Shown: one piece after another, positions 42,651 through 64,000 of the stretch
How positions within the stretch are numbered: the stretch's first letter is position 1
Layout: each line of letters begins with the position of its first letter
Origin: Trypanosoma brucei
Taxonomy: Eukaryota
Direction of reading: 5' to 3'
DNA length: 64,000 nt
Assembly: GCA_000002445.1 (NCBI GenBank)
Contig: CM000208.1
Location: 160,001 to 224,000 of the forward strand
Position numbers and translations under genes: made by a program
Notes under the pieces: model-generated
What the model saw: only the letters and a program-made list of their open reading frames with translations
The model's database searches: none
What the model was told of the DNA's origin: nothing

Positions 42651-42994
42651 TTTTTTCTTTTTTGGTTCTTGATACAACCGCGGACACTCCTCTGCAGTTG
42701 TTTGCCAAAAAAAAAAAAAACAACAACAACGAAGAAAAGCATTCTGAAATCCAACTCAATCTTGCTTACACCGTGTTTCCTCTTCCTTTCTTAAAAAATA
42801 TTTTGAGGTGTTTCGGTGTTTGTGCATCGTATCATTAAAAGGAAAACAACCATATTTCTAAGATAAGGAGAAAAACATTAATTTAGTGTATTTAGTTTAC
42901 TTTCCCATTATCTTTATTACATTTTGCTTTTAGGCGGGGGTGGGAAAAGAAATTGTGCAGTCCATTTCTTTCTTTTTCTGTTTACCGTTCAGTT

Positions 42995-43027
<33 letters not shown>

Positions 43028-43045
43028 CCCCTCCCCTCCCCCATC

Positions 43046-43765
43046 ATGCAGGGAGGAACAAAAATATATGGCGGGGTCGTGGTCCGACTGACGGATCGGT
43101 TACTGCTCTGTAAAGCTCCGGGTTTTACCACCAGCGACTTTTCCATTCCGGAACTCATGTGGGCGGAACTTGTCAGTAAATGTGCCGCACCTAATATGCG
43201 TACTAGTTCTACTATGATGGCTAATAATGCCACTTCTAGTGGTTCTGCAGCTCCACAACTTTCTTACCATATTTGTACTGATAATGAACTTGCCTTCGCT
43301 ATTTTATCAGATATGGGGCTTACACGCCATAAGGCGCATGCCACATTGGATGAGGCATCCAAAACATTTCGGAAGATGTTCGTTGAGAGCGTGGCGTCGT
43401 TTACTCCCAAAGCAGTGGAGGTGTTTGTAAAACCCTACCGTGATTTATTGCTCCGCTCCAGTGATGGGGGTTCATCAGATGATAAGGTAAATAAAGTTAA
43501 AAAAGCTGTGGATGAGGTTAAGGAAATTGCTCTCGATAATGTAGAACGTGTCATGCAACGTGGACAACGGATTGATGATATTGTTCGCTCTACAGAGGAT
43601 TTGCAGCTTCAGGCGCAAGGTTTCCAGCGAAGTAGTCGTGATCTCCGCCAACAAATGTGGTGGAGTTCAGTCAAGGGGAAGTTATTGATTGCAGGTGTGG
43701 CTCTTTTTTTTATTTTAATTGTGGTATTCGTTTTTGTAGGTGGTAAAAAAGAGGAAAAGAAGTAA
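43046..43765 (+). CDS. Longin-type R-SNARE (VAMP7/synaptobrevin-like) with a C-terminal transmembrane anchor.
   Basis: The SNARE motif VKEIALDNVERVMQRGQRIDDIVRSTEDLQLQAQGFQRSSRDLRQQMWW has the zero-layer Arg in RGQRID. The N-terminal ~120 aa are longin-like. The C-terminus KLLIAGVALFFILIVVFVFV is hydrophobic. The track start 42953 (TTG) would translate a (TA)n microsatellite, so the first ATG at +93 is preferred. Confidence 0.8.
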   Translation: MQGGTKIYGGVVVRLTDRLLLCKAPGFTTSDFSIPELMWAELVSKCAAPNMRTSSTMMANNATSSGSAAPQLSYHICTDNELAFAILSDMGLTRHKAHATLDEASKTFRKMFVESVASFTPKAVEVFVKPYRDLLLRSSDGGSSDDKVNKVKKAVDEVKEIALDNVERVMQRGQRIDDIVRSTEDLQLQAQGFQRSSRDLRQQMWWSSVKGKLLIAGVALFFILIVVFVFVGGKKEEKK

Positions 43766-47990: not shown

Positions 47991-49802
47991 ATGGGGGCGG
48001 AAAAAAAAATAAATCGTCCCACCAACTCTGGTGAGGTTGCAGAGAATGTTGGCGCATTTACAGAGGTGATGGTACCGGTATGGAGTCGACTTTGTGACAA
48101 AGTTATCGCAGCCTACAAGGCAGGTGAAGATATTGTAGTATTACAGCATTTTGAGGAACTGCGGGCAACACCCGAGCTTGATGTTATTGCGCATGATTCG
48201 CTCATATCTGCTGCTCCCGACCTCACAGTTGGGGCGGTTGAGAAGAAAGAAGATGATAGAGCTGCTAAGAAAGAAAGGTTGGAATATTGTTGGGGGCGCG
48301 CACTTCTCTCTGCTAGGCACTTGGCAGGAGACGATGATGAACACATTAACAGCATCGTGGAAAGTTTTGAGCAACAGTTTGGATGCGTCTCCGGGTACCT
48401 TCGCGCTCTAGCTATAAACGCTGAGAGCGCACTGGAGGTGCTTCAGTTATACCAAATGATGGAGGGTCCGGTAACCACGAGGGTTGCCACTGCTGCTCTG
48501 CACCGGTTTTTAACAAATGACGCCAGTGAAGTTTCTGGACTGTTGCAGTTCCTGAAGTTGAATAATGTTCCACTGACACGTGAGTTTCATGATCAACTGG
48601 AAAAAAATTTTGTCATGCGTATGAAAACGGAGGATGCTGAGGAAGTCTTTAAGGACATGCGTAACGCTGGCGTGGAGCCAGTTAGTACACATCCGTATAA
48701 CTTTATTTTCATGAAAACACCCCCGTTTAAGTACATGGATCTTCTTGATTACTACGAGGACATGCTGGATCGCGGTATCGTGCCTATGAACTCCACCTTC
48801 CGCATTCTCAGCAGACAGACACAAAACGGGGGTTTGGTGAACCAACATTTTAGTGCTCTTGCGAGGGGGACGACTACGGGATCCGATCGTCGGCATGAAA
48901 CTGAAGGGCACGGCGGGACGCAGGCTTTTTTTGCCACACGCCTTGAGGAACTCGCTCGTTTGAAATCCAGTACAACTTTAGATGATGCTCTGCGCGTGCT
49001 CCGGCGTATGGACGTTGAGGGTACGCCATTAATTAGTGGCTCCGTTGTACTCAACGTCTTATTGTCCGTATTCTGCCGTGCAGGGCACATCGAAGACACG
49101 GAGCGTGTGCTTCAATTAGCAAAGGAGCGCGGATGTACTCCCAATGGTGCAACGTTGTCTAGGGTTTTAAAGAAGAGTAATGCAGACCGCTTTCTTCAAG
49201 CTGAGCTTATCCTACCAGACGCACTAGAAGCAGGTGACGTACGGTTAAGCGACATCACTGATGTTATGTGTCACTTCTTCAATAATGGCATGCGTAGTCA
49301 AGTAGTGCGTATACTCCGTGCATATGTTGTCCGTTGTTATCGCAACCCCACCGAGTCGATTCCCCACACCGTTGCCTTATGGGCGTTGCGACTGGGTCCG
49401 TTTGATTGGGCACTGGGTTTTTTAGCAATATTGCTTGCATCCAATGATGAGCCACTTAGCGATCGAATTCAACGGCGCATGCACGAAGTTGTGAAGGAGA
49501 ATCGAAGTCGTGAGATTCTTAAGGTTCTGGAGGGACACAAATGGGACCGCCGCAGTATTTTGCTCGCACCGCAGCTTCAAGAGCCAACAAACAGCAGCGA
49601 TGGCGCTGGTGAAGTTAATGGGCGCAGCAGTGAAGGAGGTAACAGCGGGGGTGGACATCATCGTCGCGACATGGGCCCGTCATGGATGAGTGCCATGCAT
49701 TTGGTACTAAAGGAAATGGGTGTGGAGAAGGAAGTACTGATGGGATATAAGGCGAAACTTTCGGCTCTCATTAATGATGCGAAAAAGAAGCGTGATAATT
49801 AA
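47991..49802 (+). CDS. Pentatricopeptide repeat (PPR)-containing protein, probable mitochondrial RNA-binding protein, 603 aa.
   Basis: Helical-repeat protein. VLNVLLSVFCRAGHIEDTERVLQLAKERGCTPNGATLSRVL is a textbook PPR unit, and several weaker units lie upstream (DSLISAAPDL..., YQMMEGPVTTRVATAALHRFL). Confidence 0.6.
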   Translation: MGAEKKINRPTNSGEVAENVGAFTEVMVPVWSRLCDKVIAAYKAGEDIVVLQHFEELRATPELDVIAHDSLISAAPDLTVGAVEKKEDDRAAKKERLEYCWGRALLSARHLAGDDDEHINSIVESFEQQFGCVSGYLRALAINAESALEVLQLYQMMEGPVTTRVATAALHRFLTNDASEVSGLLQFLKLNNVPLTREFHDQLEKNFVMRMKTEDAEEVFKDMRNAGVEPVSTHPYNFIFMKTPPFKYMDLLDYYEDMLDRGIVPMNSTFRILSRQTQNGGLVNQHFSALARGTTTGSDRRHETEGHGGTQAFFATRLEELARLKSSTTLDDALRVLRRMDVEGTPLISGSVVLNVLLSVFCRAGHIEDTERVLQLAKERGCTPNGATLSRVLKKSNADRFLQAELILPDALEAGDVRLSDITDVMCHFFNNGMRSQVVRILRAYVVRCYRNPTESIPHTVALWALRLGPFDWALGFLAILLASNDEPLSDRIQRRMHEVVKENRSREILKVLEGHKWDRRSILLAPQLQEPTNSSDGAGEVNGRSSEGGNSGGGHHRRDMGPSWMSAMHLVLKEMGVEKEVLMGYKAKLSALINDAKKKRDN

Positions 49803-51352: not shown

Positions 51353-51623
51353 TATTCGCACGAGCACTTGTTATTGACGCGATATCGGTGAGTTACCGAC
51401 CGACGGACAGCAGTAGTGGTAACATAAGCAAATTAAAGATAGAAAGTAGCGTAGAGCAGACCAGTGTGGTAGCGTGCGGCTTTCACCATTTCGGTTGAAA
51501 AATTTTTTTGCCGTCAGTTAAGGAGGAAGGGGAGAGTGCGAGACATCGGAATCTTTGGGGTGTGTTTTCGGACACAATAGAAAATCAGCAAATAAATCAC
51601 GAGTAGGTAATAGGCAACAAAAA

Positions 51624-52661
51624 ATGGAGTCCCCTGTGGAAATGTACCGATCCCACTGCCAAGCTGTTGGGGTGGCAATGAACAGTGCGTTGCTAAGGGG
51701 GCTGCCGGAAACCACTGAGAAATTGAGGAACATGAAAGTAATGCATTTTGGGCGAAATTTTCTCGGTGACCGGGGTATCCTCCCGTTACTTCCTGTAATA
51801 AAGCAGGCCAAATCTTTGCACACTCTTGATTTGCGTAATAATGGGATAGGGAACGAGGGGGTGAAGGCACTTTGTCGCCAACTCCGTGATCATCCCTCAC
51901 TGAGGGTTCTGGAATTGGGTGGGAATCCCTTTACGTACCTGGCGGCGCGGCAACTCACATATTTGTGTGAATACAACGACAGAATTACTTTTATTGGCGT
52001 TGACGACACCCTCATGACGGAACCACTTCGCCAGAGCATAGTTCACCGCATGCAAGCAACAATGAAGCGTCGGGAGAATCGGAGGCAGAGGAAGCAGGCT
52101 TCACCTAATGTAATAGACAATGAGGAAAATACCACTGAAGAAGTCACCGCTACTGGAGACACCGAATATATCGACGACGCTGCAGTAGCTATGGGGGTTT
52201 TTGTTTCAGAGGATCCACTGGCAACACCTCTGCAACCGGTTGAAGTGGTAACGGAGGCTTGTGTGCAACTCATTAGTCCACCAGCCAACACCCCATCGGT
52301 CAAATCAGAAAAAGTTGCTGAGATGACGGGAGATGAAATGATATCCGGTCCCTCACCATCATCCTCTTCAGTTACTCCCCCATCCACAGGAGCCGCCGCT
52401 TCTTCAACCTCCGACTCTCGGGAGACAACACAAGCCAATGAAGACGAAGTGGGAGAACCTGCTGAGGTTTTCTCCGATGAGGAACAAAATAAAGTGGCGG
52501 CAGTAGAGGAAACCGACGAGACGAGTGACGTGTCGGTGCATAGTGCAGGGGAGGAGTTAAGCGGAAGTATGGTAGATGATGATGTGCAGAGCGAAAGCAG
52601 TGTGACGAGGAGTGACGCAACGGAGCCGCAAGAAGATAGCATTGTGGAAGACGAAGATTAA
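51624..52661 (+). CDS. Leucine-rich repeat (RNI-like) protein with a hyper-acidic S/T/E/D-rich C-terminal tail.
   Basis: LRNMKVMHFGRNFLGDRGILPLLPVIKQAKSLHTLDLRNNGIGNEGVKALCRQLRDHPSLRVLELGGNPF are LRR units of the ribonuclease-inhibitor type. The tail is SSSSVTPPSTGAAASSTSDSRETTQANEDEVGEPAEVFSDEE.... The track start 51555 is TTG; the first ATG is at +69. Confidence 0.7.
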   Translation: MESPVEMYRSHCQAVGVAMNSALLRGLPETTEKLRNMKVMHFGRNFLGDRGILPLLPVIKQAKSLHTLDLRNNGIGNEGVKALCRQLRDHPSLRVLELGGNPFTYLAARQLTYLCEYNDRITFIGVDDTLMTEPLRQSIVHRMQATMKRRENRRQRKQASPNVIDNEENTTEEVTATGDTEYIDDAAVAMGVFVSEDPLATPLQPVEVVTEACVQLISPPANTPSVKSEKVAEMTGDEMISGPSPSSSSVTPPSTGAAASSTSDSRETTQANEDEVGEPAEVFSDEEQNKVAAVEETDETSDVSVHSAGEELSGSMVDDDVQSESSVTRSDATEPQEDSIVEDED

Positions 52662-54353
52662 TATTATTCAAGCGAATATCTTTGCATGTGGTACGAAATG
52701 AGAAGTAAAGAGAAGAGAAAAAGAGGGGAGAAAGAGAGAGAAACTCAGGAAATGCGGAATGTGGGGTATCTGTCGTGTAAATATTGTTTTTGCGCCCACC
52801 GCAAACAAAAGTGTTCTTTTTTTTTTTCATTCGAGGTCCGACAAAGCGTTCAAAGATAGTTGAGGCTATGAACATCAGCAACTATGTGGCTGTACTTGAC
52901 CGTATGAAGTAAAACCTACACCTTGGGAATACGTCCATTTGTGTTACATATAATTGCTTGGCACCGTCAGTGCAATCGTATGTGATGCGTGGGGTTAATC
53001 GTTTCGTTCCAGGCACTCTTTCTTTTCGTCATTTGATGTTGTTTTTTTTTTTGTGTGTGTTTTTTGTGTTGTTCCTTGTTTCATATTTCTTTATTGCATG
53101 ACTGCATGGGCGTAAGGAAAAGGTGAGGGAGAGGCAACCCTTGTTATTTTAATTTTCTTCCGTCCTCGTTACCCGCCCCTCCAAATAAAACAGTTGAGCG
53201 CAAATTCACACAAACTCACATACACATACACGTGCATATGCATATATGTATCATTACACTATTCATCTCTTTTCCCTTCTATTTCTCTCTTAAACTTTTT
53301 TTTTTCCTTTTTCGATTGTATTCGGCTTCTCATTTACTCCATTGTGTGCCTTCCTCTCTCTCTCTCTCTGTTTTTTTTTCATTTTTATGTTCTGTGGTGT
53401 CCTTCATTTTCCCCCACAGTGAGGAGTGTTTGTTGTTGTTGTTGTTTCCCTTTTTTTGTTCCATCTTATTATTTCCTGTCCCCTTCTGCCACTTCTCATA
53501 TCATTTTTTTTTGTCCACAACCACATGCCACTATTGTGTGTAATGAACTGAAGAATAAAAGAAATGGGATGAAAACGGGGGGAAAAACCTTTTAAAAAAA
53601 GGAGAAGAGGAGAAAAAGAGAAGAAGAAAAGAAAAGATAAGATAAGAGAAGAGAAGAGAGAAGGTAAAAAGAAAGAATGGGAAGGGAAAAGGGAAGGAAA
53701 TGTGGACAAAAAAAACGGGTTGGGTGTGGAGTGAGTGAAAGCGTCAGATGTACTAAATAAATGGTATTTATTTTAGTGATGCCTTTACTGTTCTATTTAT
53801 TAGATTTGACGAAGCTTTCGCGATTATTATTATTATTGTTGTTGTTGCTACTGTTCTCAATTTTTTTTTTCTTACTTTCCTCTCTTCTTCTTTTCTTTTC
53901 ATATCCTATTTGGTGCCGTCACTGCCTTTTCTCTTTTTTTTTTTCTGAGCTGTGAATTTTTTGCTCAACCTCGAAAGAAATAGATTGAAAAGAAGAAATA
54001 CTGGTTGCAGTTCCTGTATTCCATTGGTTATTTTCATAATCTTGTTTGGGTACGTGTACAAATAAATAAAAAGTAAAGCCACTTAAAAACAAAAATATTG
54101 TTTTGTTGAGGTGGTTCACCCAAGTGTCAACACCTTTTAGGAAGAAGTAGCAAAAGAGGAAACAAATTAAAACAGCGAGAAGGGAAATCAAACAAGCCAA
54201 AGGAGAAATTAAAAGGCATTTATCAACTTGCGACTGCACATCTACTCGTGTTTATAAGAGTTGTAGTAGCAGGAACAAGAACAAGCAAAGAGGAAACCTA
54301 TTTATTTAATTTCATTTTTGTTACCTTCTTTCATTAAAAAAGAGTTTCAAGCC

Positions 54354-55136
54354 ATGGCGGACCTTTCCGATAATAAGTTTGCCTACCTCAAAGACAAAAA
54401 TATACCACAACTCATGGAGTATATTCTACAGAAACTCGTCACGGACCTTCCTGAAAATCCAATGCATTATATTGGGGAACTGATGGAAGAACCCGTTCCA
54501 CCGAGGATTATTGTCGCCGGCCCACCCGGCAGCGGCAAAGGGACGCAATGCGAAGCCATTGCAGAGAAGTTTGGTGTTGTACATATTTCTACTGGAGATT
54601 TAATTCGGGAAGAAGCAACAGCGGATACGGAGGAAGGCAGAGAGTTGGCGCAGTTGATGGAAGAAGGCGATTTAGTCCCTGACGAATTCATCTCTCAGTT
54701 GGTTTACCGCCGCCTTCAAAAAGACGACGCGAAGCGGTTTGGTTGGCTGCTTGATGGTTTCCCCCGCTCCAAACAACAGGCGATGGAATTGGATACATGG
54801 ATGTGCCCTCCACATCTCTTCATTTTGTTGGATGTAGCGGATGAAGAAGTTTTCAAACGCATTGAACACCGTCGTGCCGATCCCGTGACGGGGAATGTGT
54901 ATCATTTAATATTTAACCCACCCCCAAAGTCTGATAAAGAATTATGGAATCGCCTCGTGCAGCGGACAGATGACCATCGCGACACGGTGGCGAAACGGTT
55001 GGAAGTATATCGCGAGGAAATAAGTTGGTTGATGGGACACTACGGTGGTATAACCGAAGTTGTGGATGGGAATCAGGGCATCAGAGCCGTTACAGCGGAT
55101 GTACTGAAAACAGTGGAGAGCCGGCTGTTGCGTTGA
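54354..55136 (+). CDS. Adenylate kinase with an N-terminal DPY-30/RIIa-like docking extension; probably flagellar-targeted.
   Basis: P-loop IIVAGPPGSGKGTQCEAIAEKFGVVHISTGDLIREE, NMP-binding and LID regions (GWLLDGFPRS, RRADPVTGNVYH) are present. The N-terminal KFAYLKDKNIPQLMEYILQKLVTDLPENPMHYIGELM fits the Dpy-30 motif. The track start 54318 is TTG; the first ATG is at +36. Confidence 0.88.
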   Translation: MADLSDNKFAYLKDKNIPQLMEYILQKLVTDLPENPMHYIGELMEEPVPPRIIVAGPPGSGKGTQCEAIAEKFGVVHISTGDLIREEATADTEEGRELAQLMEEGDLVPDEFISQLVYRRLQKDDAKRFGWLLDGFPRSKQQAMELDTWMCPPHLFILLDVADEEVFKRIEHRRADPVTGNVYHLIFNPPPKSDKELWNRLVQRTDDHRDTVAKRLEVYREEISWLMGHYGGITEVVDGNQGIRAVTADVLKTVESRLLR

Positions 55137-56130: not shown

Positions 56131-57112
56131 TCGAACCTTCGTGTTGATCGGTGCTGTTCTTTTGTGTGCGTCCATGTGTGTCTGAAGTTGTTGATAGTGT
56201 GTTGGATCTCTGTAGTGACGAGAGTCCGTTATGTAATTACCGTTATTGTTTTTCGCTTTGTAGGATTTTTCTACCTGACAGTTGCGGTTGGAGGTAGATT
56301 AAACACAAATTTATGCAACCAACCCCATTTCAAAACATTTCCTGCATTACTTTGTTCTCTTTTTCTGGTCGTTTTGTTATGCTTTGTTTTAGTGGTTATG
56401 GTCCTACGGTTTGTTTGGTTCGCATTTAGTGTCTCCGACGGACTATCTTGGTGTTTATTGCAGGTAACTTTATGTATTTATGTATAATTGGCTTCCAGCA
56501 TTTTTTTCTTTTCTTCTTCCCCCCCCCTTCATCTTTCTCTCTCTTTTTGGTGCGTTTGACTTATTCTGCGCTTTCAGTTTCCCATGTTGTGAATGTATGA
56601 CATAATATATATTTCATGCCGGCCTTTCCCTCCATTTTTCTTCTTTGCTTTCCCCTTCTTTGATTTGCTTTGTGACCAAAACAATGTTGCCCCGGTGAGT
56701 TTCTGTTTTGTTTCGCTTTAGGCATCTAATATTCACTGAATTTTTCTTCAGTCTCCGCGGCATTTAACTCGATAACACACTGCTTCTAAGCGGTCCACCT
56801 GAAGTGTAGGGGAGAGGGGATAATTTTTTCCTTGAAAGAAAAGGACGCAAATACGTTTGTACGCATCTAAGTATATAAATATAAACACTTATTTATACAG
56901 CAAAAGGAAGAAGTCACCACGTGCATTATTATCTGTAGAAGTGAATAGTAGAGTTCAACATTTTGGACACATTTTTTTTTTTGTGACACTTTGTCACTTA
57001 AACCCATCGACACTTAGTCGTTGATAATAGTGAATTTCGGTGTCTGTTGTGGCTCCGGTTCCCTTCACCGCCATATTTTCTCCACTCAGGTGAATCATTA
57101 AAAAAAAAATCG

Positions 57113-57150
<38 letters not shown>

Positions 57151-57152: not shown

Positions 57153-57407
57153 AACGCGCGTGAAGAATCCACACAGAACACCACAGGAGGGGGAAGGGGC
57201 TGAACGCATTTCTCCTTTCTTTACCAGGGAAATAAAACGGCGAGGATAGAAACACGCGGGCATACTTTTTCCTTGAACGGTGGCTTTTGAGTGTTTGAGA
57301 ACTGGGCACTGCACCCCGTTGAAAGTATTTTAACCTTGGTGTATATATATATATATATATTTTAGTGCCGGTGCTGCGAGCGACTCACATCAAAAGTTGT
57401 TTGAAAA

Positions 57408-60400
57408 ATGATTGGCACTCGGCGAAGTACTAAAAGCACCTCCTTTCAGCACCTGTACGGGTCACAAAACCGCACGCTGCGAGGTGCAAATGGTCAAAAG
57501 GGATTTTCCCATCAGCGGAATGGCACGGCTCGTGAGGAGCAGCAGTCAACCAAACCTCCAGGGCCACGTAACTCCGTTTTGATCAATCGTGTGGTTGATG
57601 TGTTGCCGCTGTTTAGCATCAACGGCACCGTTAGGTATATTGAGGCCGTAGGGGGACGTAGTGCGTGGACTGCAGAGGCGGATGGGTGCATTCGCGTGAG
57701 GAGTGTACCAAAGGGAACGGAAGTGCGAACACTGGAAGGAAGGGAAGGATGTTTCTGCACGTGCATATTATATGTAGAGTCAACGAATGCCATGTGGACA
57801 ACCTTCAGCGATGGCTTCATTCGCGTTTTCGACTTCAATACCCATGCGCTGCTCTCTGAGTTCATTAAACATGACAAAGCTATTGAATGTATATGGGAGG
57901 TGGAGGGATATGTATTTACGGGTGGTCGTGACTGGCAAATATATCAATGGAAGCCGGACACTTACGTCTGCGAACGACGACTCTCCGGTCACAATAATAC
58001 TGTTCGGTGCCTCTGCCAGTACGCTGGGGATACCGGAGCTGTCCTCTTCTCTGGAAGCGATGATGGCACTGTACGGGCGTGGGATCCATACCTTCCCGCG
58101 CGGAAAGGTAAGGACGGGGGCCCTATGATGCATATTTTTACTGGACACACACAGGGCGTGCTTTCTCTAGAACTTGTAACAGTCAGCAATCAGTTATGGT
58201 CTGGGGGCGAGGACACCACCATACGTGTTTACGACCTTCAAACGCTTGGGTGTGTTAGTGTGCTAAAGCACCACAGAGCACCCGTGAGTTCCATCAAGTT
58301 GATAGGAATTCGTGTGTGGAGTGCTGACAAGTATGGAAAGACGCTCTTGTGGGACCCCAAGACGTTAACACCACTGAAAGACCTCACCACTCATATGGCT
58401 ACCGACCCCGGTTCGATGCTCAGCATTTGTAAGGTGAAGCAACTGGTGTCATGGAAAGTATGGACTGCCTGTTCTGGGGGGAAGATTTATTGTTGGAATG
58501 CAGATTCTATTCCTATAGCGTTTGATGGTCCCACAGCCGGCAAGGACGCTGTTGATGTTAGCGATGCGGTGCAGCTGCTTACAGAAAATAAAGGCTTGCG
58601 AGGCGAAATAGAAAAGTTGAGGAGGCAGCTGATGGGTGAGGCCGAGGATGGGGGGTCTTCGGCAAACAGAGGGTCTGCGAGTGTGTCACCATCAAGAGCC
58701 AAAAGTGTTCCTTCTCATCCGCGGCACCATGAGTCCAAAATGGGACGAGGAACCTCCCCGTCGGCAACTCCACCGGGGAAAAGGCGGTCTCCCCCTGCGT
58801 TTTCTGCTGAATACGCCAACGATACTCCTATTCACGAGAGAGCAAACACGGCCTCCAGGGAGGGTGATGATGCACGAGGTTGCACGACATGTCATGAGAG
58901 ATTTTTCTATGGTGATGCATGGGAATTTATCTTCAGGCAAGACACGGAAGAGCTGTGCGCAGTGATCCGTCATGAAGTTGCTACTGTCCTCGGCATTCCG
59001 GCCGATCAGGTGCAAATCACCCAAATGGAACTTGGCAGTGCTGGCCAGGGGTGTGTTGTGAAGCTGAATATACAGCACAGTGCGAGTTTGCCTCCTTCAG
59101 AAATTGATACTATGCTAAGCAATTATCCATTTATTGATGTCTATGAGTTGTATGGTCGTTACCTCGCGAAGAAGTACGGGGACCCTAACGAAGTGCATGT
59201 TTCAGAGAGTGGAAGTGGGACGTTGGGTGGGCAGGTGCACCGGTCCCTGTGCGTTGACGACAGCAGAGGGGAGGAGGAGATGGCAAATGGTTACGACGAC
59301 CCTACGCCACTCCAAAATATGATCAACACGTTATTGAAGGAGAACGAAGAACTGCGGGGCCAGTTAATGCCAAAGGCGGAGACACCACCAGACGAAAACA
59401 ATGCTGAGGTTCGGACAGCGTTAACTAACTACGAAGAAGAGAGGATGAAGCCCCGGATTGCACAACTTGAGAAGGCTCTTGCCGAGAGAGATGAAACGCT
59501 TCACAGAAAGGATGAACGGATAAGGCAATTGGAGAGGGAACTTGAGGCAACCAAGTCCGATACCGGTATGAAGGAAGTCATGAAAGACCTGCGCAAAAGA
59601 GAGAAGAAACTGTTGACTGAAGTTGAAGCACTCACATCTCAGGTGGAGGCAATGGAAGAAGATAAGAGGAGAGCGGAAGACGATGCCAGCTTCTACCGAA
59701 GGGAAAATGAGTTGTTACGCAATCGTATCTCTGCAATGAATGAACAAATGGCAAAGGCATCAGGTTCTGAAGCAGAGGAAATGCAAAAGGTATTGACGAG
59801 TTATGAGGAAGAAAATGTAAAACCGAGGATAGCGCGACTTGAGGAGGTCATCGCAGAGAAGGATGAAAACCTTCAGTCACGGGACGAGAAGATAAAGAAG
59901 CTCGAAGATGAACTTGAGGCGGCAAAACAGGAAGCGAAATTTGCATCGGGGGAAAGTGTGAAGAGTAACGGCAAAGCAGGGAGTGAAACGGAAACATCGC
60001 TCTTAACGGAGGTGCAGGTGCTTAGAGACCAGGTGGAGGCAATGGAAGAAGATAAGAGGAGAGTGGAAGACGATGCCAGCTTCTACCGAAGGGAAAATGA
60101 GTTGTTACGCAATCGTATCTCTGCAATGAATGAACAAATGGCAAAGGCATCAGGTTCTGAAGCAGAGGAAATGCAAAAGGTATTGACGAGTTATGAGGAA
60201 GAAAATGTAAAACCGAGGATAGCGCGACTTGAGGAAGCGGTTTCTCAGAGGGACGAGGTTCTTCGTTCACAAGATGAACGGATAAAGGAGCTGACGAGAG
60301 AAATTGAAGAAAATCGGAGAGAAGACAAGAAGGGTTCCTACCACGTTACAGACGAGGCTGTTGTAGCGTCCAAGGAGGAAGTTCAGGCACTGAAGAATCA

Positions 60401-62567
60401 AATGAAAGCAATGAAAAAGGAAAAAGAAAAACTGGAAAATGAGTCTAAGCTCTATAGGAAGGAGAATGAGTCGCTGAAGGAACGGCTTTCTGAGACGAAT
60501 GATCAGCTGAAGAAGTCATCACCTCTTCACGAAGAGGAGAAACAAAAGGTGCTGTCAAGATACGAGGAAGAAAATATGAAAGCGAGAGTCGCGCGACTTG
60601 AGGAAGCCGTTACTCAGAGGGATGAGGCTCTTCGTGCAAAGAGCGAGCGGATACGCCAACTGGAGAAGGAACTGAGGGCAGCGCACCGAGAAGTGAAGGC
60701 TGCTCTCGAGGAGAGCAAGAAAAGCAGCAGTCGGCTTCACAGCGACTCCACGCAGACATCGGCAGAGGAACTGAGGTCTCTCATGACAAAAGCAAGGGAA
60801 AGAGAAAAAGAAAAATTAAAGAATGAGTCTAAGCTCTATAGGAAGGAGAATGAGTCGCTGAAGGAACGGCTTTCTGAGACGGATGATCAGCTGAAGAAGT
60901 CGTCGTCTCTCGACGAAGAGGAGAAACAAAAGGTGCTGTCAAGATACGAGGAAGAAGACGTGAAGCCGAGAGTGGCACGACTTGAGGAAGCCGTTACTCA
61001 GAGGGATGAGGCTCTTCGTGCAAAGGATGAGCGGATACGCCAACTGGAGAAGGAACTGAGGGCAGCGCACCGAGAAGCGAAGTCTGCTCTCGAGGATGGC
61101 AGGAGAAACAGCAGTCGGCTTCACAGCGACTCCACGCAGACATCGGCAGAGGAACTGAGGTCATTGAAAACAAAGATGGATGAAATGGAGAATGACAAAC
61201 GAAGGCTGAATGAAGAAATCGTCCTGTTAAGAAAGGAAAACGAGACACTAAAGCGAAATTTGGGTGACGTAATGAGGAGGTTAAAGAATCCATCAAGTTT
61301 CATTGCAAGCGAGAAACAGAAATTGCTGTCGAGCTACGAGGAAGAACACGTGAAACCGAGAATTACACGACTTGAGCATGCGGTTACTCTGAGGGACGAG
61401 AGACTTCAAGCAAAGGAGGATCGGATACGTCAACTGGAGAGGGAACTCGATGCCCTGCGGTATGGTGGTAAAAATGATGTGGATAACAATGCAGTGGAAG
61501 ATGGTAAGACCTTCCGCCAGCTGGAAGAGGCACTCTTAGTTGAAATTCAAGGAGTAAAGGATCAAATGAGGGCAATGGCAAAGAGCAATCAAAAAATGCA
61601 AGAAGAAGCTGTTTGTCTAATGAGGGAGAATCAGATGCTGAGAGATCGTCTTGCGGAGGCGTGTGAACAGCTCGGAAAGACACCATCTATCGAGGCGAGG
61701 GAGACTAGTCGAGAACTAGTGAAGTGTGAGGATGTAAGTCCTAACCCTAGAATAGCACAGCTTGAGCAAGCCGTAACTGAGAGGGATGAAATACTCCACA
61801 CAAAGGATGAACGGATAAGGCAACTGGAGAGGGAACTCGAGATGTTTCAGCACGAAAACAGGGCGATATGTGGCAACAGAGATTGTCGGGACGCAGGAAG
61901 GAAGTTGGCGGCTGAAAACCAAGAACTGAGGAATCTGGTGAAGTATATTGAGAATGACAAGCAGAAGCTGGAGCACGAGGCCAGTTTTTTCAAGCATGAA
62001 AACGATGCTCTGATCGGCCGTATCGCGGAGCTGGAAAGTACTCCAAGAGCGCCGTCCTTGTCACCAACTAAGACTCATACCCTTTCGGGTGATAGGGAGG
62101 CTCTTATGTCGCGGCTGGGCACTGCAATCGAGCAGGTTCACAATGTTCAGAAAGAAAGAGAGGCTGCAGAACGCAAGATTGCTGTATTGCAGGAGGATTG
62201 TAGGGACCTCCGTATGAGGCTTCAGCACGCTTCTGATACTCCTGTACGTAATGAAGCGTTGTTTCCGTCTTCCACTAACTGTGACGGCACATACCAAACA
62301 GGTCTTCACAGTGGAGAGGATGCTCATTTAATTGAAAGTGCGAGGGGAGCGCCTCACAGTAGTAGTGACGCCATTGTTGAGTTATTGCCCGACAGATTAA
62401 CCGCATTGGAGGATACGATGGCGTCTTTAAATACAGGACTTCATGACGCTATACGTCGTTTGAGCTCCGTAAGCGACAACAGCGCGCTGCTACGCACACA
62501 AATTGCGGATATGCTCTCGCAGCGTTCGTCTCACAATCTGATTACTGATCCTCATGAGAGGTCGTAG
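57408..62567 (+). CDS. Giant WD40-repeat plus repetitive coiled-coil protein, 1719 aa; probably cytoskeleton or flagellum associated.
   Basis: The N-terminal ~aa 80-400 carry WD40 signatures (SGSDDGTVRAWD, SGGEDTTIRVYD, TGGRDWQIYQW, ADKYGKTLLWD). Then comes an S/P-rich linker and about 1000 aa of heptad coiled coil with at least 7 copies of the motif YEEE-VKPRIARLEEAVTQRDEALRAKDERIRQLEKEL. Confidence 0.85.
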   Translation: MIGTRRSTKSTSFQHLYGSQNRTLRGANGQKGFSHQRNGTAREEQQSTKPPGPRNSVLINRVVDVLPLFSINGTVRYIEAVGGRSAWTAEADGCIRVRSVPKGTEVRTLEGREGCFCTCILYVESTNAMWTTFSDGFIRVFDFNTHALLSEFIKHDKAIECIWEVEGYVFTGGRDWQIYQWKPDTYVCERRLSGHNNTVRCLCQYAGDTGAVLFSGSDDGTVRAWDPYLPARKGKDGGPMMHIFTGHTQGVLSLELVTVSNQLWSGGEDTTIRVYDLQTLGCVSVLKHHRAPVSSIKLIGIRVWSADKYGKTLLWDPKTLTPLKDLTTHMATDPGSMLSICKVKQLVSWKVWTACSGGKIYCWNADSIPIAFDGPTAGKDAVDVSDAVQLLTENKGLRGEIEKLRRQLMGEAEDGGSSANRGSASVSPSRAKSVPSHPRHHESKMGRGTSPSATPPGKRRSPPAFSAEYANDTPIHERANTASREGDDARGCTTCHERFFYGDAWEFIFRQDTEELCAVIRHEVATVLGIPADQVQITQMELGSAGQGCVVKLNIQHSASLPPSEIDTMLSNYPFIDVYELYGRYLAKKYGDPNEVHVSESGSGTLGGQVHRSLCVDDSRGEEEMANGYDDPTPLQNMINTLLKENEELRGQLMPKAETPPDENNAEVRTALTNYEEERMKPRIAQLEKALAERDETLHRKDERIRQLERELEATKSDTGMKEVMKDLRKREKKLLTEVEALTSQVEAMEEDKRRAEDDASFYRRENELLRNRISAMNEQMAKASGSEAEEMQKVLTSYEEENVKPRIARLEEVIAEKDENLQSRDEKIKKLEDELEAAKQEAKFASGESVKSNGKAGSETETSLLTEVQVLRDQVEAMEEDKRRVEDDASFYRRENELLRNRISAMNEQMAKASGSEAEEMQKVLTSYEEENVKPRIARLEEAVSQRDEVLRSQDERIKELTREIEENRREDKKGSYHVTDEAVVASKEEVQALKNQMKAMKKEKEKLENESKLYRKENESLKERLSETNDQLKKSSPLHEEEKQKVLSRYEEENMKARVARLEEAVTQRDEALRAKSERIRQLEKELRAAHREVKAALEESKKSSSRLHSDSTQTSAEELRSLMTKAREREKEKLKNESKLYRKENESLKERLSETDDQLKKSSSLDEEEKQKVLSRYEEEDVKPRVARLEEAVTQRDEALRAKDERIRQLEKELRAAHREAKSALEDGRRNSSRLHSDSTQTSAEELRSLKTKMDEMENDKRRLNEEIVLLRKENETLKRNLGDVMRRLKNPSSFIASEKQKLLSSYEEEHVKPRITRLEHAVTLRDERLQAKEDRIRQLERELDALRYGGKNDVDNNAVEDGKTFRQLEEALLVEIQGVKDQMRAMAKSNQKMQEEAVCLMRENQMLRDRLAEACEQLGKTPSIEARETSRELVKCEDVSPNPRIAQLEQAVTERDEILHTKDERIRQLERELEMFQHENRAICGNRDCRDAGRKLAAENQELRNLVKYIENDKQKLEHEASFFKHENDALIGRIAELESTPRAPSLSPTKTHTLSGDREALMSRLGTAIEQVHNVQKEREAAERKIAVLQEDCRDLRMRLQHASDTPVRNEALFPSSTNCDGTYQTGLHSGEDAHLIESARGAPHSSSDAIVELLPDRLTALEDTMASLNTGLHDAIRRLSSVSDNSALLRTQIADMLSQRSSHNLITDPHERS
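59641..60240 (+). repeat. In-gene tandem duplication: two ~208-bp segments (59641-59850 and 60031-60240) with 390-bp periodicity and a single mismatch.
   Basis: The string caggtggaggcaatggaagaagataagaggagag[c/t]ggaagacgatgccagcttctaccgaagggaaaatgagttgttacgcaatcg...gcgcgacttgaggag was read twice. Confidence 0.85.
60421..61175 (+). repeat. In-gene tandem duplication: two ~365-bp units about 95% identical with ~384-bp period.
   Basis: gagtctaagctctataggaaggagaatgagtcgctgaaggaacggctttctgagac... through ...cacagcgactccacgcagacatcggcagaggaactgaggtc occurs at ~60441 and ~60823. The minus-strand shadow ORFs 60555..60740 and 60939..61124 are near-identical. Confidence 0.85.
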
Positions 62568-64000
62568 AGTTATGTAACTGTATCATTTTATGTACAAAAG
62601 GAAGAAAATAAACAAATAAATGAAAAGGTGGGCGATTGTAAACGACTTAAATGCTGTCTGCCCGTTTGTCGGACAACTAACTCCGCAACGCAGCACCTGA
62701 AGTACTGTATGTGCTTAAGCTTATGAACTCCTCATATGAGGTGATATGTGGTGAGTTTAACCCTTGGTACAATGTAGACAATTATTATTTATGGACATTG
62801 TCGATGTAATATTGTGGGGGCGCTCCCTTTTTGTATGGAGGTTGCTTTGTATCTATTGCTTTACTGGCGCCACCCGAGTTTGTTGTTGTTGTTGTTTTCA
62901 CTCTTCTTGCTATCACTACACCCACACGTGTACGTCAAGTTCTTGGGATGTTCAATCACTCATTTTTTTTTAAAAGCAATGAGACATCATATGTGAAGAA
63001 ATATTATTCCTTTACTTTTAGGTATCTCCTTGTGTACGATGCCTCGCTGGCTCACATACCTTTTTGTTTACGCCCGCCTTTATCTTCCGTTTTGTGTTTA
63101 AATAGTGCTCTTTTTGCTTCATGTTAGTTTGATTGATCCTGTTGGATAAGTTAACGGCGGCGTTTTACTTTTCATGGGGAAAGTAGACGTGCCACCGACC
63201 GGTTTTTCTTTTTTTTTTTCACACAGTACTCACGTCGAAACATTTTTTTTTTTGAGTGTGAATGCTGTGTGAAAAGTTTCCACTTCCCTCCTTTTTTTTT
63301 TGTGTGTGTGTGTGCGTTTGTGTGTAGTTCTGGGTATATCAGGGGATGGAGTAGGTTTTCCATTTGTGGTCACGAAGAGAGGGGAGAGAGAGAGAGAGAG
63401 GAAACAAAAAAAAATGGAACTGTTCAATAGGCTGCGCAAGTGGGCAAATATCTGTAGTAGTGGAAGTCGTCGCAGGCTGACGTGGGGCAACGAGTGTTTT
63501 TTTTTTTTTTTGAAGAGAAGAAATAGAGGAACAGAAGCCCCGTGTTTAAGTGGTTGTACGACGTTTTGTGCGTGCCAAAAAAAAAAATTGTGAACAAAAA
63601 AAAGGGAGTAACCCCTTTCGTTTGCCTCCTTTGTTTTTTTTTTCGTGGCCTCGAGAGGATTTTGCTTCTTTCCTCTCTTTGCATCTGATTGAAATGACTG
63701 TAGTCGGAGTGATTGTACCGCTAACGCACAGACAATAACCCTGTTTTTATTTGGAGGGAAGCAAACGTTTTCACTATCACCTTCTTTTGTACTTCTAACT
63801 GCGTATGTATGTATGTACATGTGTCTGTTTGTTTTAATGTATACTAACTACTCCCCTTCCTCCTCCTCCTCCTCCTTCTCTGTTGCGTAACCAAGTGGAC
63901 GGTAAACATTGCAGAAGGTATGTGCCCAAGTGGCTTGTAATCGCTGTATTTGCTCTGTTTTACCGTCAACAATACATCCCCCATTTTTTTTTTAAAAAAA

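What the first reader, a model, noticed from the sequence alone, without database searches (positions are those of the whole stretch)
57408..62567. Giant WD40 plus coiled-coil gene with hierarchical repeats and near-identical 384-390-bp DNA duplications
The 1719-aa ORF joins an N-terminal WD40 beta-propeller to about 1000 aa of coiled coil. The coiled coil is built from a ~40-aa core motif, YEEExVKPRIARLEEAVTQRDEALRAKDERIRQLEKEL, in at least 7 copies. These copies are nested in ~128-130-aa higher-order units. Two unit pairs are almost identical at the nucleotide level. Pair A (59641-59850 and 60031-60240) differs by 1 mismatch in ~208 bp. Pair B (~60421-60790 and ~60808-61175) is about 95% identical. 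The other copies have diverged strongly. Such recent duplication or gene conversion inside a coding coiled coil implies that copy number could vary between strains or be collapsed in a short-read assembly. A WD40 plus repetitive rod architecture resembles kinetoplastid cytoskeletal or flagellum-attachment-zone repeat proteins. The family assignment is open.
Basis: seen in the sequence. Interest (0 to 1): 0.7.

Follow-up and report, generated by a model that had tools for sequence, protein, structure and literature searches.

The report
Trypanosome FAZ6 gene with recombining repeats
This ORF is the already-named Trypanosoma brucei cytoskeletal protein FAZ6; its helical rod is a tandem array of seven ~128-residue units that still exchange sequence with each other, a real but ordinary feature of trypanosome cytoskeletal genes.

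Summary
ORF 57408-62567 (+) encodes 1719 aa. It has a 7-bladed WD40 propeller, a FAZ1_cons domain and a helical rod of exactly seven units spaced 369-390 nt apart. Pair A is 206 nt with 1 mismatch and sharp edges. Pair B is 384 nt at 90.6% identity, not ~95%.

The gene is known. The protein is 100% identical to T. brucei TREU927 XP_822342.1. Mass (195.5 kDa), domains, chromosome-10 position and neighbour match FAZ6 (Tb927.10.840), a flagellum-attachment-zone protein concentrated at the distal FAZ/anterior tip. NCBI calls the T. cruzi orthologues "Flagellum attachment zone protein 6".

The modest additions:
- A published table scores FAZ6 "Repeats: No", yet the rod is a single-level array: conserved helix A, S-rich linker, unrelated helix B.
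- Helix A carries a family-wide motif (AL..Y....LKP.IS.L) present in 1-10 copies across kinetoplastids.
- Unit number varies: T. cruzi proteins are 826 + 65n aa with n = 2-7, and T. congolense has 10 units, four of them 97-99% identical.
- T. equiperdum has 6 units, with the breakpoint in a 54-nt identity block. That assembly is short-read (Velvet, k=33), so collapse is not excluded.

The "hierarchy" of repeats is not supported. The function of the repeats remains inferred.

The parts
57408..62567 (+). Complete CDS of FAZ6 (Tb927.10.840; XP_822342.1 / UniProt Q38CF6), 1719 aa, 195.5 kDa
   Evidence: ORF. 100% identical to the TREU927 protein. Mass. Matches the FAZ6 entry in Table 1 of PMC4827413.
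57408..57599 (+). N-terminal low-confidence (probably disordered) region, aa 1-64
   Evidence: AF2 pLDDT about 30 for aa 1-62.
57600..58502 (+). Seven-bladed WD40 beta-propeller, aa 65-365
   Evidence: AF2 pLDDT above 90, 28 strands = 7 blades of 4. Foldseek against PDB hits WD40 propellers at E about 1e-20, with target TM-score up to 0.89. Pfam PF00400 scores 48.9 bits against a cutoff of 27.
58560..58634 (+). Conserved post-propeller helix, aa 385-409, containing an 'ENxxLR' motif like that of helix B
   Evidence: AF2 helix 385-409. N394 and L397 are invariant, and L390, E393 and L404 nearly invariant, across 15 orthologues.
58635..58874 (+). Ser/Pro/Arg-rich low-confidence linker, aa 410-489
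   Evidence: pLDDT below 50. Heptad score is negative.
58881..59177 (+). FAZ1_cons domain (Pfam PF23398; probably the former PFAMB506), aa 492-590, a compact beta-alpha-beta-beta-alpha-alpha module
   Evidence: Pfam E = 1.3e-22, 80 bits against a cutoff of 27.5. AF2 pLDDT about 85-90. No solved relative found by sequence.
59304..62042 (+). Segmented alpha-helical rod, aa 633-1545: a lead-in half unit plus 7 tandem units of 123-130 aa. In core-start phase the units are U1 59430-59801, U2 59802-60191, U3 60192-60560, U4 60561-60944, U5 60945-61334, U6 61335-61724 and U7 61725-62042.
   Evidence: Heptad signal is found in 28% of windows against 2% in shuffles. The AF2 two-unit model shows helices of 51-66 aa separated by short low-confidence breaks.
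59640..59845 (+). Pair A, copy 1: the gene-conversion tract (helix B of U1, the junction, and the first 15 aa of the U2 core)
   Evidence: 206 nt with 1 mismatch against 60030-60235, and sharp edges. The adjacent cores of U1 and U2 have pS = 0.87.
60030..60235 (+). Pair A, copy 2
   Evidence: The single mismatch (59674/60064, Ala/Val at aa 886) is shared by DAL972 and absent in the T. equiperdum assembly.
60405..60788 (+). Pair B, copy 1: a whole 128-aa unit in helix-B phase
   Evidence: TRF period 384, 2.0 copies, 91%. 36 of 384 positions mismatch.
60789..61172 (+). Pair B, copy 2
60725..60778 (+). 54-nt block identical between the pair B copies. The breakpoint of the one-unit (384-nt) deficit in T. 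equiperdum OVI lies here.
   Evidence: The single T. equiperdum copy is copy-1-like up to 60724 and copy-2-like from 60779.
62043..62564 (+). Non-repeated C-terminal region, aa 1546-1719, with two further heptad-bearing helical stretches (about aa 1575-1600 and 1665-1697)
   Evidence: Heptad scan. Identical in the three Trypanozoon sequences apart from 1 residue.

Best explanation
The ORF is the T. brucei gene for FAZ6 (Tb927.10.840), a cytoskeleton-bound component of the flagellum attachment zone (FAZ) filament.

Shown here: the protein has a 7-bladed WD40 propeller and a FAZ1_cons domain at one end. These are followed by a segmented alpha-helical rod made of seven tandem ~128-aa units. Each unit contains:
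- helix A, about 53-66 aa, under purifying selection and carrying the family-wide motif AL..Y....(L/V)KP.I(S/A).L;
- an unconstrained Ser-rich break;
- an unrelated helix B, about 51 aa;
- a short junction.

The array is old. Synonymous sites between most units are saturated, and the 3' units have positional counterparts in T. congolense. Even so, neighbouring units still exchange sequence by non-allelic gene conversion and unequal crossing-over. That exchange produced the 206-nt near-identical tract of pair A and the 384-nt pair B. It also explains why unit number differs between species and strains.

Inferred: the rod pairs into a coiled coil up to about 120 nm long. The propeller and the FAZ1_cons domain dock it to FAZ partners. 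The periodically repeated helix-A motif offers several equivalent binding sites, so unit number sets reach and valency.

From the literature: the protein is enriched at the distal FAZ and anterior cell tip. It co-purifies with FAZ4 and lies near the polo-like kinase TbPLK.
For: Identity:
- 100% match to TREU927 XP_822342.1 on a 4,054,025-bp contig. The DAL972 orthologue lies at chr10:157-168 kb.
- The mass of 195.48 kDa matches the 195 kDa listed for FAZ6 in Table 1 of PMC4827413, which also gives 'WD domain/PFAMB506' and coiled coils Yes.
- The downstream neighbour is a WD40 + coiled-coil protein, as published for Tb927.10.850.
- NCBI names the T. cruzi cluster members 'Flagellum attachment zone protein 6'.

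Domains: Pfam, AF2 and Foldseek.

Rod anatomy: unit alignment, heptad scan against shuffles and the AF2 two-unit model.

Selection:
- Helix A has pN 0.18-0.29 against pS 0.43-0.87 for pairs outside the recent tracts.
- The linker has pN about equal to pS.
- The motif aligns without gaps in every orthologue.

Conversion and crossing-over:
- The pair A tract is sharp-edged with 1 mismatch in 206 nt.
- TREU927 and DAL972 differ at 12.4 sites/kb in the array against 4.8 and 3.8 sites/kb in the flanks (Fisher p = 0.002).
- Clustered differences lie at paralogue-diagnostic sites (p = 4e-12).
- T. equiperdum has one unit fewer, with the breakpoint in the 54-nt identity block.
- Four T. congolense units are 97-99% identical, while Tb6~Tc9 and Tb5~Tc8 pair by position.
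- T. cruzi proteins are 826 + 65n aa, with n = 2-7.

Localisation and partners: PMC4406125, PMC4551316, PMC10953051 and PMC7394968.
Against: - No tool output directly links XP_822342.1 to the locus tag Tb927.10.840. The link is inferred from mass, domains, chromosome position, the neighbouring gene and orthologue names.
- No functional (knock-down) data for FAZ6 were found in the searchable library.
- The oligomeric state and the relative arrangement of helices A and B are unknown. The AF2 monomer has pTM 0.25, and my heptad score is crude.
- The only copy-number difference within the T. brucei group comes from an Illumina 2x150 / Velvet k=33 assembly. It could be a collapse.
- Some low T. cruzi counts are probably collapses too.
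- The direction and donor of the clustered TREU927-specific changes in pair B are unresolved.
- A binding role for the helix-A motif is purely inferred from conservation.
Confidence: 0.85

Rival explanations
1. The near-identical tracts are assembly artefacts in the TREU927 reference (a unit wrongly duplicated or consensus-smoothed), not real sequence.
For: Tandem near-identical units are a classic source of assembly error. T. cruzi gene models of 708 and 773 aa break inside the array.
Against: The independently sequenced T. b. gambiense DAL972 has the same 7 units and the same pair A mismatch. It also has its own SNPs inside both pair B copies. Arrays of the same kind occur in T. congolense and T. 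cruzi.
Confidence: 0.03
2. The near-identity reflects strong purifying selection on the protein rather than recent duplication or conversion.
For: Helix A is clearly constrained (pN well below pS).
Against: Within the pair A tract the synonymous sites are identical too (1 difference in 206 nt). The adjoining cores of the same two units have pS = 0.87. Selection on the protein cannot hold silent sites identical or give such sharp edges.
Confidence: 0.03
3. Pair B is simply a recent whole-unit tandem duplication that has since diverged by point mutation, with no ongoing conversion. The 6-unit T. equiperdum gene is a de Bruijn-graph collapse, so copy number in the T. brucei group is in fact fixed at 7.
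For: Pair B spans exactly one unit (384 nt) at a fairly uniform 91%. T. equiperdum OVI was assembled from 2x150 reads with Velvet at k=33, and the breakpoint block (54 nt) is longer than k. TREU927 and DAL972 both have 7 units.
Against: Pair A covers only part of a unit, so it cannot be a unit duplication. Between-strain differences in pair B are clustered (5 in 11 nt, 3 consecutive) at paralogue-diagnostic sites. The longer 206-nt pair A identity was not collapsed in the same T. equiperdum assembly. Copy number demonstrably varies in T. cruzi; per the accessions, two sequences (6 and 3 units) were each deposited in two independent projects.
Confidence: 0.3
4. The rod is not an extended parallel coiled coil. 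Helices A and B of each unit fold back on each other (spectrin-like or antiparallel hairpin bundles), giving a shorter beaded rod.
For: Each unit has two helices of similar length (about 53-66 and 51 aa) separated by a flexible Ser-rich break. Only 28% of windows show a strong heptad signal.
Against: The AF2 monomer did not pack A against B (pTM 0.25, no confident tertiary arrangement). T. cruzi units lack helix B altogether (65-aa unit), so the conserved element works without an A/B hairpin.
Confidence: 0.2

Closest known systems
FAZ6 (Tb927.10.840) of Trypanosoma brucei (Sunter et al. 2015, PMC4406125; Sunter & Gull 2016, PMC4827413)
   Same: It is the same gene. The mass is 195 kDa, the domains are WD + PFAMB506/FAZ1_cons with coiled coils, and it lies on chromosome 10. 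It was found by immunoprecipitation of FAZ4. It localises to the distal FAZ with strong anterior-tip signal and is stably associated with the cytoskeleton.
   Different: The published table scores it 'Repeats: No' (RADAR-based). Here the rod is shown to be a 7-unit tandem array with two recently homogenised pairs and a family-wide helix-A motif.
T. cruzi 'Flagellum attachment zone protein 6' and the T. congolense and Leishmaniinae orthologues
   Same: Same order of propeller, FAZ1_cons and rod. Same ungapped motif AL..Y....LKP.IS.L.
   Different: Unit length and number differ. T. cruzi has 65-aa units (helix A only), 2-7 copies. T. congolense has about 130-aa units, 10 copies, four of them 97-99% identical. 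Leishmaniinae have 2-3 copies at 73-97-aa spacing, and Angomonas has 1. Mundinia species and Angomonas carry unrelated 70-aa and 60-aa arrays elsewhere in the rod.
FAZ1 (Tb927.4.3740) and other PFAMB506/FAZ1_cons proteins (FAZ4, FAZ8, FAZ10, GB4, PFC20, FLAM8, Tb927.10.870)
   Same: They share the FAZ1_cons domain and cytoskeletal association. Several are large, repetitive coiled-coil proteins (PMC4406125; Pfam PF23398).
   Different: According to the published table, none of the others combines the domain with a WD40 propeller. FAZ1 runs along the whole FAZ filament rather than concentrating distally. The repeat units are unrelated. That PF23398 is the successor of PFAMB506 is my inference.
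Tb927.10.850, a hook-complex WD40 + coiled-coil protein (PMC4695855)
   Same: It is the immediately downstream gene. Its propeller is 31% identical to FAZ6's over 358 aa (E = 1e-48), so the two are tandem paralogues with the same propeller-plus-coiled-coil plan.
   Different: It localises to the hook complex, not the FAZ (literature). Only its first 431 aa were available here, so whether it has a FAZ1_cons domain or the helix-A motif was not tested.

Membership tests
FAZ6 orthologue group (Tb927.10.840) | Sequence identity with the T. brucei TREU927 chromosome-10 gene product | tested here: met
   100% identity and coverage to XP_822342.1/EAN77514.1 on a 4,054,025-bp contig. The DAL972 orthologue lies at chr10:156979-168138.
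FAZ6 orthologue group (Tb927.10.840) | Published descriptors of FAZ6: 195 kDa, WD domain + PFAMB506, coiled coils | tested here: met
   195.48 kDa. WD40 and FAZ1_cons are both above the Pfam cutoffs. Heptad signal is present. The published descriptors come from Table 1 of PMC4827413.
FAZ6 orthologue group (Tb927.10.840) | Explicit mapping of this sequence to the locus tag Tb927.10.840 | not testable with these tools
   No TriTrypDB access. The mapping is inferred from the downstream neighbour matching Tb927.10.850 (WD40 + coiled coil) and from orthologues named FAZ6 by NCBI.
FAZ6 orthologue group (Tb927.10.840) | Localisation to the flagellum attachment zone | not testable with these tools
WD40 beta-propeller | Closed propeller of 4-stranded blades with WD-repeat sequence signal | tested here: met
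   AF2 gives 28 strands = 7 blades, with pLDDT above 90 over aa 70-365. Foldseek against PDB gives E about 1e-20 to beta-TrCP, PRL1 and COPB2 propellers. PF00400 scores 48.9 bits against a cutoff of 27.
FAZ1_cons domain family (Pfam PF23398) | Score above Pfam's gathering threshold over the full model | tested here: met
   80 bits against a cutoff of 27.5, model positions 2-92 of 93, aa 492-584. It folds confidently as a compact alpha/beta module.
Coiled-coil rod protein | Long alpha-helices with heptad a/d hydrophobic periodicity | tested here: met
   AF2 helices of 51-66 aa. 28% of 28-residue windows pass a heptad criterion, against 2% in shuffles and 0% in the propeller. The score is crude and home-made. 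Pfam hits are only generic coiled-coil families.
Coiled-coil rod protein | Two or more chains wound together (oligomeric state) | not testable with these tools
   Only single-chain prediction is available, and inter-helix packing is undefined (pTM 0.25).
Tandem-repeat gene evolving in concert (unequal crossing-over / gene conversion) | Tracts of near-identity with sharp edges, including silent sites, between otherwise diverged units | tested here: met
   Pair A has 1 mismatch in 206 nt, flanks at about 45-60% identity, and pS = 0.87 in the adjoining core. Four T. congolense units are 97-99% identical.
Tandem-repeat gene evolving in concert (unequal crossing-over / gene conversion) | Unit number polymorphic between strains of one species | tested here: inconclusive
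   Met for T. cruzi (826 + 65n aa, n = 2-7), although some low counts may be collapses. In the T. brucei group the counts are 7, 7 and 6, and the 6 comes from a Velvet k=33 short-read assembly.
Hierarchical (nested) repeat protein | A short motif repeated within each higher-order unit, or sub-units homologous to each other | tested here: not met
   There is one core per unit. Helix A against helix B by hhalign scores 11.8, no better than column-shuffled controls. The peak at offset 1143 is only summed core similarity from units three apart.

The most novel reading that the evidence does not exclude
The conserved helix-A motif (AL..Y....LKP.IS.L) is a docking site, and its copy number is a tunable parameter of FAZ architecture. 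Counts are 1-3 in lineages with a short, pocket-restricted FAZ (Angomonas, Leishmaniinae), 2-7 in T. cruzi and 7-10 in African trypanosomes with a long lateral FAZ. Recombination within the array would then generate heritable variation in valency or reach at the distal FAZ and anterior tip, and so in cell morphogenesis. The evidence does not exclude this. The correlation rests on essentially one phylogenetic contrast, and no partner is known.
Probability: 0.1. Interest if true: 0.6.

Novelty: already known. Interest (0 to 1): 0.25.

Why it matters
FAZ6 is a named but functionally uncharacterised part of the structure that shapes trypanosome cells.

- Its rod is a recombining array of seven units with a conserved per-unit motif. 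This corrects a published descriptor ('Repeats: No').
- The anatomy gives natural boundaries for truncation and unit-number experiments.
- Short-read assemblies and gene models of this locus are unreliable. Examples are the 6-unit T. equiperdum gene, T. cruzi models with 2-7 units, and T. cruzi models truncated inside the array.

None of this changes how such proteins are understood. Repetitive, copy-number-variable coiled-coil genes are common in the trypanosome cytoskeleton.

Tried and rejected
1. Nested hierarchy. Helix A and helix B profiles were compared with hhalign and scored no better than column-shuffled controls. Rejected.
2. A three-unit super-period suggested by the autocorrelation peak at offset 1143. 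Local windows show it is only core-to-core similarity summed over two unit pairs. Rejected.
3. A donor for the TREU927-specific clustered bases in pair B copy 1. No other unit or window position carries them. Unresolved.
4. A PDB sequence search with the FAZ1_cons domain gave no hit at E <= 1. The whole-model Foldseek search was dominated by the propeller, so the fold class of FAZ1_cons was not determined.
5. Pfam on the rod alone gave only generic coiled-coil families (KASH_CCD, PKcGMP_CC, ATG16). There is no model for the unit.
6. Literature searches for a FAZ6 knock-down phenotype found none among the papers retrieved for 'FAZ6' or 'Tb927.10.840'.
7. I tried to anchor the locus through Tb927.10.830, described in PMC5746284 as a spliceosomal U1A-complex protein. 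The upstream ORFs are an adenylate kinase and an LRR protein, so this gave no clean confirmation. The downstream neighbour did.
8. More T. brucei-group strains could not be sampled. The protein database holds only TREU927, DAL972 and T. equiperdum OVI for this gene. The DNA collections cover viruses, prokaryotes, plasmids and E. coli only.
Full report

Yes. The ORF 57408-62567 (+) encodes 1719 aa.

A profile built from the core motif finds exactly seven copies. They start at aa 675, 799, 929, 1052, 1180, 1310 and 1440, with spacing 372/390/369/384/390/390 nt.

It peaks at offsets 390 (0.43), 384 (0.385) and 369 (0.351). The background is 0.274 +/- 0.018, and the maximum over 50 codon-shuffled controls is 0.332.

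Pair A is 59640-59845 against 60030-60235. It is 206 nt with a single mismatch at 59674, and identity falls abruptly to about 45-60% on either side.

Pair B is 60405-60788 against 60789-61172, a whole unit at offset 384. It has 36 mismatches, which is 90.6% identity.

**2. What is it?**

The protein is 100% identical to T. brucei brucei TREU927 XP_822342.1 (UniProt Q38CF6, 'FAZ1 conserved domain-containing protein') on a 4.05-Mb contig. The T. b. gambiense orthologue lies at chr10:157-168 kb.

Pfam finds WD40 repeats and, above its gathering cutoff, the FAZ1_cons domain at aa 492-584. The computed mass is 195.48 kDa.

Table 1 of Sunter & Gull 2016 (PMC4827413) lists FAZ6 = Tb927.10.840 as 195 kDa, 'WD domain/PFAMB506', coiled coils Yes, repeats No, FAZ filament domain.

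Two further lines agree:
- The next gene downstream in the DAL972 and T. equiperdum loci is a WD40 + coiled-coil protein, as published for the hook-complex protein Tb927.10.850.
- NCBI names the T. cruzi cluster members 'Flagellum attachment zone protein 6'.

I therefore identify the ORF as FAZ6. The one untested step is the explicit mapping from accession to locus tag.

All real-looking ORFs in the window lie on the + strand, as expected for one trypanosome polycistronic unit.

**3. What is known about FAZ6?**

- It was found by immunoprecipitation of FAZ4. The eYFP fusion labels the distal part of the FAZ with a strong anterior-tip signal, stays on detergent-extracted cytoskeletons and colocalises with DOT1 at the tip (PMC4406125).
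- It is a proximity-labelling hit of the polo-like kinase TbPLK (PMC4551316).
- I found no knock-down phenotype in the searchable library.

**4. Anatomy**

AlphaFold2, run with 15 orthologues, gives these regions for aa 1-640:

| Region (aa) | Prediction |
|---|---|
| 1-62 | low confidence |
| 65-365 | 28 strands = seven 4-stranded blades, pLDDT above 90 |
| 385-409 | a conserved helix |
| 410-489 | low-confidence Ser/Pro/Arg-rich linker |
| 492-590 | compact beta-alpha-beta-beta-alpha-alpha module (FAZ1_cons), pLDDT about 85-90 |

Foldseek matches the model to WD40 propellers such as beta-TrCP, PRL1 and COPB2 at E about 1e-20.

The rod (aa 633-1545) is not one continuous coiled coil. In the two-unit AF2 model each unit has four parts:
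- helix A, 53-66 aa, starting in the 'EEKQKVL' junction and running through the KP of the core;
- a 7-8-residue Ser-rich low-confidence break;
- helix B, about 51 aa;
- a 1-5-residue break.

A simple heptad scan finds strong a/d periodicity in 28% of rod windows. The figure is 2% in shuffled rod sequence and 0% in the propeller, and the signal sits precisely in helices A and B.

If the rod is fully extended as a coiled coil, 117 helical residues per unit give about 17 nm per unit and about 120 nm for seven units. This is an inference.

**5. Is the repeat hierarchical?**

No. Each unit has one core. Helix A and helix B profiles show no similarity beyond column-shuffled controls. The autocorrelation peak at three units (offset 1143) is only summed core similarity.

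The impression of a core nested in a larger unit comes from uneven constraint within a single unit:
- Between old units, helix A has pN 0.18-0.29 against pS 0.43-0.87, which indicates purifying selection.
- The linker has pN about equal to pS, so it is unconstrained.
- Helix B is intermediate.

**6. History of the array**

Synonymous sites between most units are saturated, so the array is old.

Compared with T. congolense (10 units), the 3' units pair by position (Tb6~Tc9 at 49%, Tb5~Tc8 at 46%). Four central T. congolense units are 97-99% identical to each other. Divergent edges with a homogenised centre are the classic signature of a tandem array evolving by unequal exchange.

In T. brucei the homogenised tracts are mosaic:
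- Pair A joins helix B of U1 and U2 and the first 15 residues of the next core, while the rest of those cores has pS 0.87. This is gene conversion, not unit duplication.
- Pair B covers a whole unit.

TREU927 and DAL972 differ at 12.4 sites/kb in the array, against 4.8 and 3.8 sites/kb in the N- and C-terminal parts (Fisher p = 0.002).

In pair B copy 1 the between-strain differences are clustered: five within 11 nt and three consecutive bases. They fall at sites that distinguish the two copies, and DAL972 and T. equiperdum both carry the copy-2 bases there. T. equiperdum differs from TREU927 at only 3 other sites in the CDS, so the cluster is highly non-random (p = 4e-12). Direction and donor remain unresolved.

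**7. Copy number**

T. equiperdum OVI has 1591 aa, exactly one 128-aa unit fewer. Its single pair B copy is copy-1-like up to 60724 and copy-2-like from 60779. The breakpoint therefore lies in the 54-nt block that is identical between the copies.

That pattern fits unequal crossing-over. It also fits a collapse in this assembly, which was built from Illumina 2x150 reads with Velvet at k=33 (PMC5278650). The longer 206-nt pair A identity was not collapsed in the same assembly, which mildly favours a real deletion. I leave the question open.

In T. cruzi the evidence is clearer. Every full-length orthologue is 826 + 65n aa, with n = 2, 3, 4, 6 or 7 and a constant 65-aa spacing; a fifth count, n = 5, comes from an N-terminally truncated model. 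According to the accession lists, the 6-unit and 3-unit sequences were each deposited identically by two independent projects. Some 2-unit models and two truncated models (708 and 773 aa) probably reflect assembly problems.

**8. The conserved element**

An ungapped alignment of every KP-containing segment from all orthologues gives E..AL..Y....LKP.IS.L.R. The T. brucei version is EE.QKVL.SYEEE.VKPRIARLEE. Copy numbers are:

| Lineage | Copies of the motif |
|---|---|
| Angomonas | 1 |
| Leishmaniinae | 2-3 |
| T. cruzi | 2-7 |
| T. brucei | 7 |
| T. congolense | 10 |

Other lineages have expanded unrelated segments of the rod. There are 70-aa arrays in L. enriettii and L. orientalis and a 60-aa array in Angomonas. 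The rod is therefore a general hot spot for lineage-specific repeats.

**9. Mechanism**

Shown here: the domain architecture, the array structure, constraint on helix A, and sequence exchange between units.

From the literature: residence at the FAZ and anterior tip, association with FAZ4, and proximity to TbPLK.

Inferred:
- The rod dimerises.
- The propeller and FAZ1_cons domain anchor the protein. FAZ1_cons is shared with FAZ1, FAZ4, FAZ8, FAZ10 and other cytoskeletal proteins.
- The repeated helix-A motif offers several equivalent binding sites, so unit number sets reach and valency.

**10. Verdict**

The finding is accurate, and its guess at the protein family was right. The gene is already known and named, and recombining coiled-coil repeats are commonplace in trypanosome cytoskeletal genes.

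The useful additions are a corrected repeat annotation for FAZ6, a defined unit and motif, evidence of concerted evolution and copy-number variation in the family, and a warning about assemblies of this locus.

Interest is low to moderate.

Noticed in passing
Outside the window, about 1.7 kb downstream of the FAZ6 stop; L002:9866-11160 and L001:9470-10776: The next gene encodes a WD40 + coiled-coil protein (1404-1417 aa in the two assemblies). It fits the published hook-complex protein Tb927.10.850. Its propeller is 31% identical to FAZ6's over 358 aa (E = 1e-48), so FAZ6 and this gene are tandem paralogues that ended up in different flagellum-associated structures.
   Followed up: partly
window 60498-60528 and 60642-60644: TREU927 carries clustered differences in pair B copy 1 (SSPLH against SSSLD; AGC Ser against GAT Asp, three consecutive bases). 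Both DAL972 and T. equiperdum have the copy-2-like bases at these sites. No donor for the TREU927 bases exists elsewhere in the gene or window. The cause could be patchy conversion in the other lineages, a haplotype difference or a reference error; this is unresolved.
   Followed up: partly
window 57112-57148 and about 57345-57362: A (GT)18 microsatellite and a (TA)9 run lie in the intergenic region just upstream of the FAZ6 start codon. Both are potentially polymorphic and sit where the trans-splicing signals should be.
   Followed up: no
window 1-64000: Every plausible ORF of at least 200 aa is on the + strand, and cumulative GC skew rises throughout, as expected for one polycistronic transcription unit. 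Pfam identifies a PB1 protein (22291-25542), V-ATPase subunit H (26531-27937), an SMC protein (29600-33700), an RF-1 domain protein (38315-40213), synaptobrevin (42953-43765), a PPR protein (47991-49802), an LRR protein (51555-52661) and adenylate kinase (54318-55136).
   Followed up: partly
Orthologues P0013 (L. enriettii), P0010 (L. orientalis), P0006 (Angomonas), P0007 (Porcisia): FAZ6 orthologues carry unrelated lineage-specific tandem arrays in the rod. These are 70-aa units spanning about 670 aa in L. enriettii and about 320 aa in L. orientalis, 60-aa units in Angomonas, and 73-aa units containing the KP motif in Porcisia.
   Followed up: partly
T. cruzi proteins P0124 (708 aa) and P0127 (773 aa): Two T. 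cruzi FAZ6 gene models end inside the 65-aa array with short out-of-frame tails. They are probably frameshift or assembly errors in the repeat rather than real truncations.
   Followed up: no
window 63230-63820 (-): A 196-aa ORF of low-complexity, Lys/Phe/Leu-rich sequence lies in the intergenic region after FAZ6, on the strand opposite to all genes. It is most likely spurious.
   Followed up: no
window 60064 (pair A copy 2) against L001: In the T. equiperdum assembly the only pair A mismatch is absent, so the two 206-nt tracts are 100% identical there. This is either a further conversion or bubble-merging by the short-read assembler.
   Followed up: no
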